Below are positions 21,845 through 23,488 of a stretch of 64,000 nucleotides of DNA, one piece after another. The first letter of the stretch is position 1; each line of letters starts with the position of its first letter. The position numbers and the translations under genes are program-made. Source of the DNA: Candidatus Poribacteria bacterium (GTDB lineage Bacteria; Poribacteria; WGA-4E; PCPOR2b). The stretch covers positions 2,137,557 to 2,201,556 of the forward strand of contig OZ244042.1 in assembly GCA_965215015.1 (NCBI GenBank), written 5' to 3'. The notes beneath the pieces are model-generated. The model was not told the DNA's origin and did no database searches. It worked only from the letters and a program-made list of their open reading frames with translations.

Positions 21845-21871
21845 CGTTAGGGGTTCCTTTCTATATTTGTA

Positions 21872-22576
21872 TCAATCAGACCCCGCCCCTTCGGCCTCTA
21901 ACTGCAACGCAAAATCCTTAATCATGCCCTTAATCACTGACAACTCCTCAAACCATTTATCCGTTTTCCGGTCTATTTCTGTCATCTTCTGACTATAGCT
22001 GTTCTCTAACGCCAAAACGGCTGCGACCGAATCATTCTCACGACGTAGCTTCCGCAATTGGTGCCACTCTTCAATGGCTAGATATTCTTCAGGGGTCGGA
22101 TTGGGGGAAAGCTTCTCCTCTATAATTTTTTGGAGTCGATTCACCTCTATATCTAATGCCTTCTGCTTAGCCGGCAATTCCTGACCCAGACGTTCACTGG
22201 CCCGAGCCCACTCCATATTGGTTTCATTCCTCAATTTGGTGAGCTGATCGATTTCTGCCTCCACTTGCAATTGTCCAGCCCTGAGTAGAGCAATTGAGTT
22301 GCGAATCCTTTGTTCTCTCTCAGAGGCATCCGCTGCACTCGTCGCCTCCAAAGCGGCTTCTGCGTCATATATAACGATTTCCGGATCCGAATCCAGCTGG
22401 TTTCCGCGAACCGGCGGTGGTGTCGGTACATTGCTGATGGGCGGCGGTGGCTTGAACCGTTCATCATCCGACTGAAAACGCCAACTCTTCCCAAAGTAGC
22501 TGCCAATCATAAAGCTGCCAATCACAATCAGCACCACGACGCCCGTTCCTAAAATAACGCGCCAATCACGTTTCAT
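21872..22576 (-). CDS. Membrane-anchored coiled-coil protein, paralog B
   Basis: It has an N-terminal TM helix, a Pro-rich linker and a long coiled coil, and is about 90% identical to 22664-23371. Confidence 0.6.
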   Translation of the reverse strand: MKRDWRVILGTGVVVLIVIGSFMIGSYFGKSWRFQSDDERFKPPPPISNVPTPPPVRGNQLDSDPEIVIYDAEAALEATSAADASEREQRIRNSIALLRAGQLQVEAEIDQLTKLRNETNMEWARASERLGQELPAKQKALDIEVNRLQKIIEEKLSPNPTPEEYLAIEEWHQLRKLRRENDSVAAVLALENSYSQKMTEIDRKTDKWFEELSVIKGMIKDFALQLEAEGAGSD

Positions 22577-22663
22577 GATTTTCCTCCGGAATACAGGGAC
22601 TCCTCAGTGAGCGTAAAGCCAACGGCTGAGCCAATGGCTTTAACGCAAAGGAGACTTGAAAAC

Positions 22664-23371
22664 TTACTCGGCCCCCTCGGACTCTAACTGCAACGCCAAA
22701 TCCTTAATCCTATCCTTAATCACAGACCGTTCCTTAAATAATTCAGCCACTTTCCGGTCTATTTCTGTCATCTTCTGACTATAGCTGTTCTCTAACGCCC
22801 AAACGGCTTCGACCGAATCATTCTCACGAAGTAGCTTCCGCAATTGGTGCCACTCTTCAAGGGCTAGATATTCTTCAGCGGTCGAATTGGGGGAAAGCTT
22901 CTCCTCTATAATTTTTTGGAGTCGATTCACCTCTATATCTAATGCCTTCTGCTTAGCCGGCAATTCCTTATCCTGCCGTACCGTGGCCCGACGCCACTCC
23001 ATATTGATTTCATTCCCCAATTTGGTGAGTTGATTTATTTCTGCCTTCACTTGCAATTGTTCAGCCCTGAGTCGAACAATTGAGTTGCGAATCCTTTGTT
23101 CTCTCTCAGAGGCATCCGCTGCACTCGTCGCCTCCAAAGCGGCTTCTGCGTCATATATAACGATTTCCGGATCCGAATCCAGCTGGTTTCCGCGAACCGG
23201 CGGTGGTGTCGGTACATTGCTGATGGGCGGCGGTGGCTTGAGCCATTCATCATCCGACTGAAAACGCCAACTCTTCCCAAAGTAGCTGCCAATCATAAAG
23301 CTGCCAATCACAATCAGCACCACGACGCCCGTTCCTAAAATAACGCGCCAATCACGCCAATCACGTTTCAT
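22664..23371 (-). CDS. Membrane-anchored coiled-coil protein, paralog A
   Basis: A tandem duplicate of 21872-22576. The nucleotide identity extends into the flanks. Confidence 0.6.
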   Translation of the reverse strand: MKRDWRDWRVILGTGVVVLIVIGSFMIGSYFGKSWRFQSDDEWLKPPPPISNVPTPPPVRGNQLDSDPEIVIYDAEAALEATSAADASEREQRIRNSIVRLRAEQLQVKAEINQLTKLGNEINMEWRRATVRQDKELPAKQKALDIEVNRLQKIIEEKLSPNSTAEEYLALEEWHQLRKLLRENDSVEAVWALENSYSQKMTEIDRKVAELFKERSVIKDRIKDLALQLESEGAE

Positions 23372-23488
23372 GATTTTCCTCCGGAATACAGGTTAGATAG
23401 TGAAGTGAACCGCCAAGAATGCACGTCCATAGCAGTTCACCATTAGATCACTGATATAGTTCAAAATGACAACGAAAGACACACTTGT

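What the first reader, a model, noticed from the sequence alone, without database searches (positions are those of the whole stretch)
21845..23460. A recent tandem duplication of a membrane-anchored coiled-coil protein gene
The two units, each about 790 bp, are about 90% identical. The identity includes the upstream non-coding stretch. Each encodes an N-terminal TM anchor, a PPPP-rich stalk and a coiled coil of about 150 aa. Large-scale differences are confined to a few codons, for example an extra DWR near the N-terminus. The pair sits in a same-strand cluster with two Cys-rich secreted proteins and a small secreted protein, which suggests a cell-surface or envelope-associated module of unknown function.
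Basis: seen in the sequence. Interest (0 to 1): 0.55.

Follow-up and report, generated by a model that had tools for sequence, protein, structure and literature searches.

The report
Old gene pair, partly homogenised, orphaned
The two near-identical membrane-anchored coiled-coil genes are not a fresh duplication but an old gene pair, found in tandem in related Poribacteria, whose front 300 bases were recently copied from one to the other; here they sit in a cut-off fragment of a conserved, uncharacterised cluster for secreted cysteine-rich proteins.

Summary
The repeat is real. Two minus-strand ORFs, 21872-22576 (234 aa) and 22664-23371 (235 aa), are 92% identical in DNA and 86% in protein.

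It is not a recent duplication. Related Candidatus Poribacteria contigs carry the same tandem pair as two distinct paralogues. In the window, the downstream copy has the 5' ~300 nt of the upstream type (2 mismatches, dS = 0), but its 3' 420 nt belongs to the downstream type (90-91% protein identity to orthologues, 79% to its neighbour). This is an old pair with a recent 5' gene conversion.

In relatives the pair lies in a conserved cluster: ECF sigma, a thioredoxin/DsbD-like fusion, two 12-Cys proteins with a Sec signal plus double-glycine leader, CC1, CC2, a signal-peptide-bearing C39 peptidase, an FGE-like enzyme and a 389-aa protein.

The window holds only a 2.67-kb fragment. One Cys-rich gene is a 5'-truncated pseudogene. 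The "small secreted protein" is the first 81 codons of the C39 gene.

The coiled-coil family is a Poribacteria-restricted orphan: a TM anchor, a Pro-rich tether and a predicted helical hairpin. It evolves at dN/dS ~1, like the Cys-rich genes, while flanking genes show 0.22-0.34. Its function is inferred only: a membrane-tethered partner of the hypervariable cargo or of the C39 module.

The parts
22664..23371 (-). CC-B: the upstream-type (CC1) paralogue, 235 aa. It has a 9-aa cytoplasmic N-terminus, a TM helix, a Pro-rich tether and a helical hairpin.
   Evidence: ORF. AF2 model: TM helix 7-30, disordered 31-74, helices 89-158 and 186-234 with pLDDT >90. Groups with upstream copies of relatives in both halves.
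21872..22576 (-). CC-A: the downstream-type (CC2) paralogue, 234 aa, a mosaic. Its 5' third is of upstream type and its hairpin half is of downstream type.
   Evidence: C-terminal part is 89-92% identical to downstream-type proteins P0014, P0015 and P0019, against 79% to CC-B. N-terminal part is 94-95% identical to CC-B. Window 22331-21604 is 96.6% identical in DNA to the L002 CC2 3' half plus the C39 5' end.
22292..22597 (-). Maximal gene-conversion tract in copy A, whose donor type is copy B (23077-23392). It has 2 mismatches and one 9-nt indel. It includes a 15-nt internal duplication in the TM segment (IGSFM-IGSYF) that both copies share.
   Evidence: dS = 0 over 65 synonymous sites in the 5' part, against dS = 0.125 in the 3' part. 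The same 5' part shows dS 0.49-0.63 against true CC2 orthologues. Collinearity with L002 CC2 is interrupted at 22513-22331.
23369..23392 (-). 24-nt translation-initiation motif CCTGTATTCCGGAGGAAAATCATG, with a second copy at 22574-22597.
   Evidence: Two exact copies in the window against 0 expected by chance. The same motif precedes Cys160, CC1 and CC2 in L001-L004.
23404..23441 (-). Conserved intercistronic stem-loop between the Cys-rich gene and CC-B: GGUGAACUGCUA...UGGCGGUUCACU, 12 bp.
   Evidence: Predicted in the MFE and centroid folds. The sequence is 100% conserved over 130 nt in the window, L001 and L002. L003, L004 and L005 keep the pairing through C-G/U-G/G-U changes. Function not tested.
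23489..23947 (-). Intact Cys152 orthologue: Sec-type signal, double-glycine-type leader (LTVLDMEEMSQIAGG), then a 99-aa mature domain with 12 invariant Cys.
   Evidence: 87.5% identical to L001 Cys152. Alignment of 18 homologues shows an invariant leader and Cys framework. Weak Pfam PF10439 hit, E = 0.007. AF2 models the mature domain as all-beta with pLDDT around 90.
24021..24269 (-). Cys160 remnant: a 5'-truncated pseudogene that lacks the signal peptide and leader.
   Evidence: DNA homology to L002 and L001 starts at codon ~73 of Cys160. A TGA stop lies directly upstream of the 89-aa ORF.
21599..21844 (-). Remnant of the C39-peptidase/DUF1573 gene: the first 81 codons only (its signal peptide and the start of the N-terminal domain).
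   Evidence: tblastn gives 95% identity to residues 1-81 of the 830-aa L001 protein. Homology ends at 21604. The PhyH gene follows at 21513.

Best explanation
Shown:
- The two ORFs are the CC1/CC2 paralogue pair of a conserved Candidatus Poribacteria gene cluster.
- The cluster order is: ECF sigma; a UshA-like/thioredoxin/DsbD-like fusion; two 12-Cys proteins with a Sec signal and a double-glycine leader; CC1; CC2; a signal-peptide-bearing C39 peptidase-DUF1573 protein; an FGE-sulfatase-like enzyme; and a 389-aa protein.
- The duplication is old. In this genome the first ~300 nt of the downstream copy were recently overwritten by the upstream copy through gene conversion. That tract accounts for the near-perfect 5' identity.
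- The same 5' homogenisation, with the hairpin halves kept distinct, is seen independently in L003.
- The window holds only a 2.67-kb orphan fragment of the cluster (21599-24269). It is cut inside the first Cys-rich gene and inside the C39 gene, and lies between unrelated genes.

Inferred from sequence and model:
- Each protein is an N-in/C-out bitopic inner-membrane protein.
- It would present a ~150-aa antiparallel helical hairpin in the periplasm on a ~45-residue Pro-rich tether.

Inferred mechanism (weakest step):
- The hairpins bind partners of the module at the membrane.
- The most likely partners are the hypervariable disulfide-rich proteins after Sec export, held for or after removal of the GG leader by the periplasmic C39 protease. 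This would be an escort or self-protection role.
- Selection keeps two distinct, fast-evolving hairpins while the anchor and tether are freely homogenised.
For: Old pair:
- Six contigs each hold two family members.
- Tandem CC1-CC2 next to the C39 gene is seen in L001, L002, L003, L006, L007 and L008.

Mosaic and gene conversion:
- Segment identities and neighbour-joining trees support it.
- For A versus B, 5' dS = 0 and 3' dS = 0.125, with heterogeneity p = 6e-9.
- In L003 the N-terminal parts are 87% identical and the C-terminal parts 55%.

Orphan fragment:
- Homology ends at 24269 and 21604.
- No Grx680, FGE, p389 or full C39 gene is in the window.
- The same genome encodes, elsewhere, a third CC protein (P0020) and a 526-aa C39 protein (P0070). 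P0070 is 74% identical to L002, whereas the window's 81-codon fragment is 100% identical.

Architecture: the AF2 hairpin has pLDDT >90, and the N-terminus is short and positively charged.

Fast co-evolution:
- Between L001 and L002, the CC and Cys-rich genes have dN/dS 0.77-0.93 and the flanking genes 0.22-0.34. The synonymous:nonsynonymous odds ratio is 0.31, p = 7e-11.
- CC-B versus its L002 orthologue shows 4 synonymous and 44 nonsynonymous changes (p = 0.013), while 130 nt of upstream spacer are identical.
- Many polar positions are invariant next to hypervariable spots at 127-134, 190-191 and 208-211.
- All other reading frames are closed.

GG leader and C39:
- The leader SPTLTVLDMEEMSQIAGG is invariant and is followed by a hypervariable core with 12 fixed Cys.
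- The C39 domain matches bacteriocin-export peptidase domains at E = 9e-15.
- FapD is a published precedent for a periplasmic C39 protease (PMC5557850).
Against: - No experiment, complex model or database hit links the hairpins to the Cys-rich proteins.
- Copy numbers are not strictly matched. L004 has 2 Cys-rich genes and 1 CC gene. L012 has 1 Cys-rich gene and no detectable CC.
- Distant C39/FGE clusters keep a coiled-coil protein next to the C39 gene but have no GG-leader Cys-rich ORF within 8 kb (L009, L010). This argues that the primary partner could be the C39/FGE proteins rather than the cargo.
- dN/dS near 1 is also what weak constraint on a coiled coil would give. No site-level test for positive selection was run.
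- The window fragment lacks the protease in cis, so these two copies may be non-functional passengers.
- Periplasmic location of the C39 protein rests only on a signal peptide read from its sequence.
Confidence: 0.55

Rival explanations
1. Recent tandem duplication. A single ancestral gene was duplicated in this lineage, and the copies have since diverged by about 8-10%.
For: 92% DNA identity with a 786-795 bp period. A shared 9-nt slippage repeat, and a lineage-specific 15-nt insertion in the TM segment present in both copies.
Against: - Divergence is bimodal: 0.7% in the 5' part and 11% in the 3' part, p = 6e-9.
- Relatives carry the same pair as two distinct types.
- Copy A's 3' half is 90-91% identical to downstream orthologues and 79% to copy B.
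- The spacers upstream of the two copies are unrelated to each other, but each is 100% identical to its positional counterpart in L001 and L002.
Confidence: 0.04
2. The coiled-coil proteins are dedicated immunity proteins. They neutralise the producer's own bacteriocin-like Cys-rich proteins at the outer face of the inner membrane. Orphan cassettes like this one are kept for immunity.
For: - The CC and Cys-rich genes share the fast-evolving regime.
- CC genes stay intact beside dead Cys-rich genes in two orphan fragments, the window and L005.
- Two distinct hairpins are maintained beside two distinct Cys-rich proteins despite 5' homogenisation.
- The GG-type leader and C39 protease are typical of bacteriocin loci.
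Against: - There is no evidence that the Cys-rich proteins are toxic.
- There is no similarity to any known immunity family.
- L004 has 2 Cys-rich genes and 1 CC gene, and L012 has 1 and none.
- L009 and L010 keep a coiled-coil gene next to C39 without local Cys-rich genes.
Confidence: 0.2
3. The coiled-coil proteins are structural adaptors of the processing or secretion machinery. They would tether the soluble periplasmic C39-DUF1573 and FGE-like proteins to the inner membrane, or span the periplasm. This is loosely like the hairpin of HlyD-type adaptors or the periplasmic coiled coil of FapF. Their fast evolution would be simple low constraint.
For: - The gene lies next to the C39 gene in every full cluster, including the distant L009 (a positional analogue) and L010 (a weak homologue, hhalign E = 3.6e-4).
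- Architecture is a TM anchor plus a helical hairpin.
- Generic hairpin matches include EmrA.
- Weak sub-threshold IcmG/DotF hits.
Against: - There are no lipoyl or beta-barrel domains, and no ABC or outer-membrane partner genes in any locus.
- A machine part would be expected to evolve like the C39, FGE and p389 genes (dN/dS 0.22-0.34), not like the cargo (0.8-0.9).
- Homology of the L009 protein is not established (hhalign probability 1.6%).
- L012 has the C39 gene and a Cys-rich gene but no CC.
Confidence: 0.25
4. In this window the pair is a non-functional passenger. The 2.67-kb fragment would be a decaying relic of a deleted or partially transferred cluster, and the ORFs are open only because too little time has passed.
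For: - Two of the five genes in the fragment are truncated.
- There is no protease, redox or FGE gene in cis.
- CC-B has the highest dN/dS against its orthologue (3.2) and 10 private substitutions.
- The upstream region of Cys152 has lost the 3' arm of the conserved stem-loop.
Against: - Three ORFs of 152, 235 and 234 codons are intact, with start motifs, all 12 Cys and the leader preserved.
- dN/dS near 1 is also seen between intact clusters, so it is a family trait and not a sign of local decay.
- A C39 protein (P0070) and a third CC (P0020) elsewhere in the genome could act in trans.
Confidence: 0.3

Closest known systems
Double-glycine-leader peptide loci processed by C39 peptidase domains (class II bacteriocins, NHLP/Nif11 precursors; PCAT transporters)
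   Same: - The Cys-rich neighbours carry a leader that fits the GG consensus, read directly: G-1, G-2, I-4, M-7, E-8, L-12, L-15.
- The leader is invariant and the core hypervariable.
- The cluster encodes a C39 domain whose best match is the NHLP bacteriocin-export peptidase domain (E = 9e-15).
   Different: - The leader follows a Sec-type signal peptide.
- The C39 domain sits in a signal-peptide-bearing ~830-aa protein with DUF1573 and Ig-like domains and no ABC transporter.
- The cargo is a 99-aa, 12-Cys protein.
- The Pfam leader hit is below threshold (16.7 against 27.1 bits).
- The coiled-coil genes have no counterpart among known bacteriocin accessory or immunity families.
FapD, the periplasmic C39 protease of the Pseudomonas Fap amyloid system
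   Same: It is a C39-family protease that acts in the periplasm on Sec-exported partners, in a system that also uses a periplasmic coiled coil (PMC5557850). There is a weak NCBIfam C39_FapD hit (E = 7e-6).
   Different: - The score is far below the FapD cut-off (25 against 330 bits).
- There are no Fap amyloid subunits and no FapF-like barrel.
- Fap substrates lack a canonical GG leader, whereas the proteins here have one.
- The coiled coil here is a separate bitopic inner-membrane protein, not part of an outer-membrane channel.
HlyD-type periplasmic adaptor (membrane fusion) proteins of peptide exporters (e.g. CvaA, LcnD; EmrA structure 4tko)
   Same: An N-terminal membrane anchor followed by a long antiparallel alpha-helical hairpin facing the periplasm, encoded in a locus for GG-leader peptides.
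   Different: - There are no lipoyl, beta-barrel or membrane-proximal domains. The protein ends after the hairpin.
- There is no Pfam or NCBIfam hit.
- The Foldseek match to EmrA is not significant (E = 0.33, probability 0.23).
- No ABC or TolC-like gene is present.
IcmG/DotF (type IVB secretion)
   Same: A bitopic protein with an N-terminal TM anchor followed by a low-complexity and helical region. It gave the only named sequence hit for the CC proteins (E = 9e-5 to 2e-3).
   Different: Scores are 18-22 bits against a cut-off of 200. The match covers only the TM, linker and first helix. No other Dot/Icm genes are present. This is a compositional resemblance, not membership.

Membership tests
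Recent (lineage-specific) tandem duplication | Paralogues are each other's closest relatives along their whole length | tested here: not met
   This is true only for the first ~95 codons. In the hairpin half, copy A is 90-91% identical to downstream orthologues and 79% to copy B.
Recent (lineage-specific) tandem duplication | Single copy in related genomes | tested here: not met
   Tandem pairs are present in L001, L002, L003, L006, L007 and L008.
Gene conversion between tandem paralogues | A sharply bounded tract of near-identity with dS ~0, whose phylogeny conflicts with the rest of the gene | tested here: met
   5' part: dS = 0 and 2 mismatches in 285 nt. 3' part: dS = 0.125 and 46 mismatches in 420 nt, p = 6e-9. 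The trees conflict. Collinearity with CC2 of L002 is lost at 22513-22331.
Double-glycine-leader precursor (Pfam PF10439 and related), applied to the Cys-rich neighbours | Leader ending in GG, with hydrophobic residues at -4, -7, -12 and -15 and an acidic residue at -8 | tested here: met
   LTVLDMEEMSQIAGG is invariant in 18 homologues. The register was read directly from the alignment.
Double-glycine-leader precursor (Pfam PF10439 and related), applied to the Cys-rich neighbours | Score above the curated family threshold, with the leader at the extreme N-terminus and no Sec signal | tested here: not met
   16.7 bits against a gathering score of 27.1. No NCBIfam hit. A Sec-type signal (residues 1-33) precedes the leader.
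Double-glycine-leader precursor (Pfam PF10439 and related), applied to the Cys-rich neighbours | Cognate C39 peptidase encoded in the locus | tested here: inconclusive
   Met in the relatives. In the window only an 81-codon stub remains. A C39 protein, P0070, is encoded elsewhere in the genome. Cleavage was not tested.
HlyD/membrane-fusion periplasmic adaptor | Lipoyl and beta-barrel domains flanking the helical hairpin | tested here: not met
   No Pfam or NCBIfam HlyD hit. The AF2 model is all-helical after the tether and ends at the hairpin.
HlyD/membrane-fusion periplasmic adaptor | N-terminal membrane anchor plus a periplasmic antiparallel hairpin | tested here: met
   AF2 gives helix 7-30 and helices 89-158 and 186-234 with pLDDT >90. 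Topology is inferred from the charge distribution only.
IcmG/DotF (NF038218) | Score above the curated cut-off of 200 bits | tested here: not met
   18.1 and 22.3 bits.
Class I anti-sigma factor (partner of the cluster's ECF sigma) | Cytoplasmic N-terminal anti-sigma domain of about 50-90 aa before the TM helix | tested here: not met
   Only ~9 residues (MKRDWRDWR) precede the TM helix. No zf-HC2 or RskA hit.
PspA/Vipp1 (ESCRT-III-like) hairpin proteins | Significant sequence or fold match to PspA_IM30 | tested here: not met
   No Pfam hit. Foldseek E = 0.18-0.31 and TM-score 0.3-0.38, as for any long hairpin.
Known bacteriocin immunity proteins | Membership of a described immunity family, or demonstrated protection | not testable with these tools
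   No family hit in Pfam, NCBIfam or PDB. Protection needs an experiment.

The most novel reading that the evidence does not exclude
The coiled-coil hairpins are the co-diversifying, membrane-tethered binding partners (immunity or escort) of a previously undescribed class of proteins. These proteins are Sec-exported, carry a double-glycine leader, hold six disulfides and are hypervariable. A periplasmic C39-DUF1573 protease would mature them, with help from a DsbD-like/thioredoxin fusion and an FGE-like enzyme. This would be a new bacteriocin-like or host-interaction system of sponge-associated Poribacteria. It would also give periplasmic C39 proteases (the FapD class) their first canonical GG substrates.
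Probability: 0.22. Interest if true: 0.7.

Novelty: new variant of a known kind. Interest (0 to 1): 0.45.

Why it matters
The pair itself is a clean example of how gene conversion can make an old duplication look recent. Here the membrane anchor and tether are homogenised while two distinct hairpins are kept apart.

The context matters more. Following the pair revealed a conserved cluster restricted to Poribacteria, with no literature found. It joins a canonical double-glycine leader to a Sec signal, and places the C39 protease domain in a protein with its own signal peptide rather than in an ABC exporter. If the proteins work as inferred, the cluster would define natural substrates for periplasmic C39 proteases. 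A 2017 study of the only characterised member, FapD, called this class uncharacterised. It would also point to a fast-evolving family of secreted disulfide-rich proteins in uncultivated sponge symbionts. The pattern of orphan cassettes and dN/dS near 1 suggests conflict-driven or recognition-driven evolution.

Tried and rejected
- **Pfam and NCBIfam on the CC proteins.** There was no hit above threshold. Only sub-threshold IcmG/DotF hits appeared, and these were rejected as compositional.
- **Profile search of the CC family against PDB sequences.** Only GCN4-like coiled-coil noise came back, E >= 0.17.
- **Foldseek of the CC model against PDB.** No hit reached E <= 0.001. The list held generic hairpins such as the colicin R-domain, PspA, Smc arms and EmrA.
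- **Exhaustive HMM search of 1.84 billion representatives.** Only 9 reached E < 1e-10, so no remote family was found.
- **Anti-sigma factor idea.** Rejected because the cytoplasmic part is only 9 aa.
- **Overlapping or antisense gene as the cause of low dS.** Rejected because every alternative frame has 5-25 stops in all 13 genes checked.
- **Homology of the L009 247-aa coiled-coil protein.** Not supported (hhalign probability 1.6%). It is kept only as a positional and architectural analogue.
- **Locating the genome's other cluster.** Look-ups of P0020 and P0070 were not on record.
- **Literature.** Searches for Poribacteria plus double-glycine, and for DUF1573 plus C39, gave 0 papers. Two broader searches found no description of this cluster.
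- **Mobile elements.** No transposase or integrase domain was found in the ORFs next to the fragment that were scanned.
- **Intercistronic hairpin.** The region as a whole does not fold better than shuffles (z = -1.2).
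Full report
**1. The observation**

Two intact ORFs lie head to tail on the minus strand. Copy A is 21872-22576 (234 aa) and copy B is 22664-23371 (235 aa). The repeat finder gives a spacing of 786-795 bp. The DNA alignment gives 92% identity and BLASTP gives 86% protein identity. The extra DWR is a 9-nt slippage repeat.

The shared non-coding part is only the 21-22 nt before the ATG, CCTGTATTCCGGAGGAAAATC. There are two exact copies of the 24-nt motif in the window, against none expected by chance. Further upstream the two spacers are unrelated.

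Identity is strongly bimodal. There are 2 mismatches in the first 285 coding nt and 46 in the remaining 420 (Fisher p = 6e-9).

**2. Relatives and context**

The protein family is very small.
- The 5.8-billion-protein word-indexed search found 25 cluster representatives.
- An exhaustive HMM search of 1.84 billion representatives found only 9 at E < 1e-10.
- The two genome hits are Candidatus Poribacteria MAGs.

Six contigs each hold two family members. Fetched loci show a conserved order:
- an ECF sigma factor, seen in L001 and L007;
- a ~680-aa protein with a UshA-like N-terminus, a glutaredoxin/thioredoxin-type Pfam hit and a C-terminal multi-pass membrane part whose 'NPC' motif I read as DsbD/CcdA-like;
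- a 160-aa and a 152-aa Cys-rich protein;
- CC1, then CC2;
- a ~830-aa protein with an N-terminal signal peptide, a C39 peptidase domain and DUF1573/Ig-like domains;
- an FGE-sulfatase-like protein;
- a ~389-aa protein.

Variants occur:
- L004 has one CC gene.
- L006 has an extra CC2'-C39' partial unit.
- L012 has one Cys-rich gene, an IS3-family insertion and no detectable CC.

**3. The window holds a truncated orphan fragment**

tblastn and blastn against L001 and L002 show collinear homology only from 24269 to 21604. That span runs from codon ~73 of the 160-aa Cys-rich gene to codon 80 of the C39 gene.
- The 89-aa Cys-rich ORF is therefore a 5'-truncated remnant with no signal or leader and a stop directly upstream.
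- The 82-aa 'small secreted protein' is the signal peptide plus the first residues of the C39 protein. It is 95% identical to L001 and identical to L002.
- The 152-aa Cys-rich gene (23489-23947) is intact.
- The fragment sits between a GHL10-like gene and a PhyH-family gene, all on the same strand.
- No Grx680, FGE, p389 or full C39 gene lies in the 64-kb window.

The same 5.94-Mb contig encodes a third CC protein elsewhere (P0020, 62% identical) and a 526-aa C39 protein (P0070). P0070 is only 74% identical to the L002 protein, and its N-terminus differs from the window stub. So the fragment is not a copy of that resident gene.

L005 shows another orphan arrangement: MgtE, then a 5'-truncated Cys-rich gene, a CC3 gene and another CC gene.

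**4. Old pair plus gene conversion**

The family alignment separates two types.
- The upstream type has the stalk 'PPPPISNVPTTP--TVRGNQLDSDPEIVIYDAEAA', 'VKAEINQL', and ends in AE.
- The downstream type has the stalk 'SPSPVVNAPETPLDTSSTVIAPQP...', 'VEAEIDQL...MEWARASERL', and ends in AESD.

Window copy B is upstream-type throughout. Copy A has an upstream-type N-terminal third, 94-95% identical to B. Its hairpin half is downstream-type, 89-92% identical to P0014, P0015 and P0019 and 79% to B.

Neighbour-joining trees of the two parts conflict accordingly. The dS values agree:
- A versus B is 0 in the 5' part and 0.125 in the 3' part.
- The 5' part of A against true CC2 orthologues is 0.49-0.63.

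A 15-nt insertion in the TM segment (IGSFM-IGSYF) is shared by both window copies. The spacer upstream of each copy is 100% identical to its positional counterpart in L001 and L002.

In L003 the N-terminal parts of the two copies are 87% identical and the hairpin parts 55%. Homogenisation of the 5' end, with two distinct hairpins retained, is therefore recurrent.

**5. The proteins**

AF2 on the 25-sequence alignment (mean pLDDT 73.5) gives a TM helix at 7-30 and a low-confidence Pro-rich segment at 31-74. It gives helices at 89-158 and 186-234 with pLDDT >90, joined by the conserved 'LSPNPTPEEYLAIEEW' turn region. This reads as an antiparallel hairpin.

The 9-residue N-terminus has four positive charges. 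I infer an N-in/C-out topology from that; it was not tested.

No Pfam hit, no PDB sequence hit and no significant Foldseek hit was found. NCBIfam gave only sub-threshold IcmG/DotF matches, 18-22 bits against a cut-off of 200.

**6. The neighbours' nature**

The Cys-rich family has 21 proteins. An alignment of 18 of them shows three parts:
- a Sec-type signal;
- an invariant 'SPTLTVLDMEEMSQIAGG';
- a hypervariable ~99-aa region with 12 invariant Cys.

Read against the double-glycine consensus (my knowledge of Havarstein/Dirix-type leaders), the residues at -1, -2, -4, -7, -8, -12 and -15 all fit. Pfam PF10439 hits weakly, E = 0.007 and below threshold. The C39 domain's best match is the peptidase domain of NHLP bacteriocin exporters, E = 9e-15. 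I read a 'CGPRS' cysteine, 'DHFLVV' and 'DP' in the sequences as the C39-type Cys, His and Asp. That assignment rests on my own knowledge of C39 motifs and was not tested.

Both cargo and protease carry signal peptides, so cleavage in the periplasm is the simplest reading. FapD is the published precedent for a periplasmic C39 protease, and its class was described as uncharacterised (PMC5557850).

The AF2 model of the mature Cys-rich domain is confident, all-beta, and has no PDB match.

**7. Evolutionary regime**

Between L001 and L002 the four central genes have dN/dS 0.77-0.93 and dS 0.04-0.19. The flanking Grx680, C39, FGE and p389 genes have dN/dS 0.22-0.34 and dS 0.21-0.50. Pooled, the odds ratio is 0.31 with p = 7e-11.

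Hairpin halves give 0.8-2.2 in all orthologue and paralogue comparisons. CC-B versus its L002 orthologue has 4 synonymous and 44 nonsynonymous changes (p = 0.013), while the 130-nt upstream spacer is identical.

Many polar columns are invariant, while positions 127-134, 190-191 and 208-211 carry up to 8 residues among 22 close sequences. No alternative frame is open.

The CC genes are therefore real coding genes evolving in step with the hypervariable cargo genes. Whether this is positive selection or weak constraint was not resolved.

**8. Function**

The data support three points:
- The CC proteins belong to the C39/FGE module.
- They face the same compartment as the cargo and the protease.
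- Two distinct hairpins are maintained.

My preferred mechanism is that the hairpins bind the hypervariable disulfide-rich proteins at the membrane, as an escort or for self-protection. This is inference.

Several observations weigh against it.
- Copy numbers are not strictly matched (L004, L012).
- More distant C39/FGE clusters keep a TM or coiled-coil protein next to the C39 gene with no Cys-rich GG-leader ORF within 8 kb. L009 is a positional analogue whose homology is not established. L010 is a weak homologue.
- This favours a rival adaptor or tether role.

In the window itself the fragment may be a non-functional relic. Three ORFs are intact, but the enzymes are missing in cis.

**9. Verdict**

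'Recent duplication' is replaced by 'old tandem paralogues with a recent 5' gene-conversion tract, inside an orphan fragment of a conserved, uncharacterised Poribacteria cluster'.

The family is an orphan with a common architecture. The cluster is a new variant of double-glycine-leader/C39 processing. Confidence is about 0.85-0.9 for the evolutionary and anatomical part and about 0.3 for the mechanism. The single figure of 0.55 reflects both.

Noticed in passing
window 23404-23441 (-); also L001-L005 upstream of CC1/CC3, and upstream of CysB and CC in L004: A conserved intercistronic stem-loop, GGUGAAC(U/C)GC...GCGGUUCAC. Pairing is kept through C-G/U-G/G-U changes across loci. The 130 nt upstream of CC1 are 100% identical in the window, L001 and L002, although the coding regions differ by 15-25% in protein. 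In the window the copy upstream of Cys152 (23954-24004) has lost its 3' arm.
   Followed up: partly
window 22574-22597 and 23369-23392; L001-L004 upstream of Cys160, CC1 and CC2: The same ~24-nt ribosome-binding and start motif, (AA)CCTGTATTCCGGAGGAAAATC-ATG, precedes several consecutive genes of the cassette. It could equalise translation, or act as microhomology for the observed cassette shuffling.
   Followed up: partly
L006 2-2406: Another rearranged cluster, in the order: CC2 3' end; a C39 fragment (aa 1-88 and 74-247, broken); CC1; CC2; full C39. As in the window, a CC gene is followed by a truncated 5' piece of the C39 gene. This suggests a recurrent breakpoint region.
   Followed up: partly
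L005 7297-8739: A second kind of orphan cassette next to MgtE. It holds a Cys-rich gene lacking its first ~20 codons, a third-type CC gene (the orthologue of P0020 from the window's genome), and the start of another CC gene carrying the window-specific 'GSFMIGSYFGKSW' insertion.
   Followed up: partly
[not shown]
   Followed up: partly
L001 1335-3377 (Grx680), and orthologues in L002, L004 and L007: An unusual fusion in one secreted/membrane protein. It has a UshA-like metallophosphatase N-terminus, a glutaredoxin/thioredoxin-type Pfam hit and a multi-pass membrane C-terminus with an 'NPC' motif that I read as DsbD/CcdA-like. In L007 it starts 4 nt after the ECF sigma gene. In distant clusters (L009) its place is taken by BlaR1-like (Peptidase_M56) and TPR proteins fused to redoxin domains.
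   Followed up: no
window 16157-17365 (-): Two adjacent same-strand ORFs of 172 aa and 216 aa. The second carries only the C-terminal enolase-superfamily domain (MR_MLE_C). This may be a split mandelate-racemase-like gene, and it lies beside an intact paralogue at 14810-15982.
   Followed up: no
window 24340-24369 (-): A sigma-70-like hexamer pair, TTGAAT-18-TATATT, lies exactly at the upstream junction of the orphan fragment and overlaps the end of the GHL10-like gene. The whole region gave 3 such matches against a mean of 4.0 in shuffles, so it may be chance.
   Followed up: no
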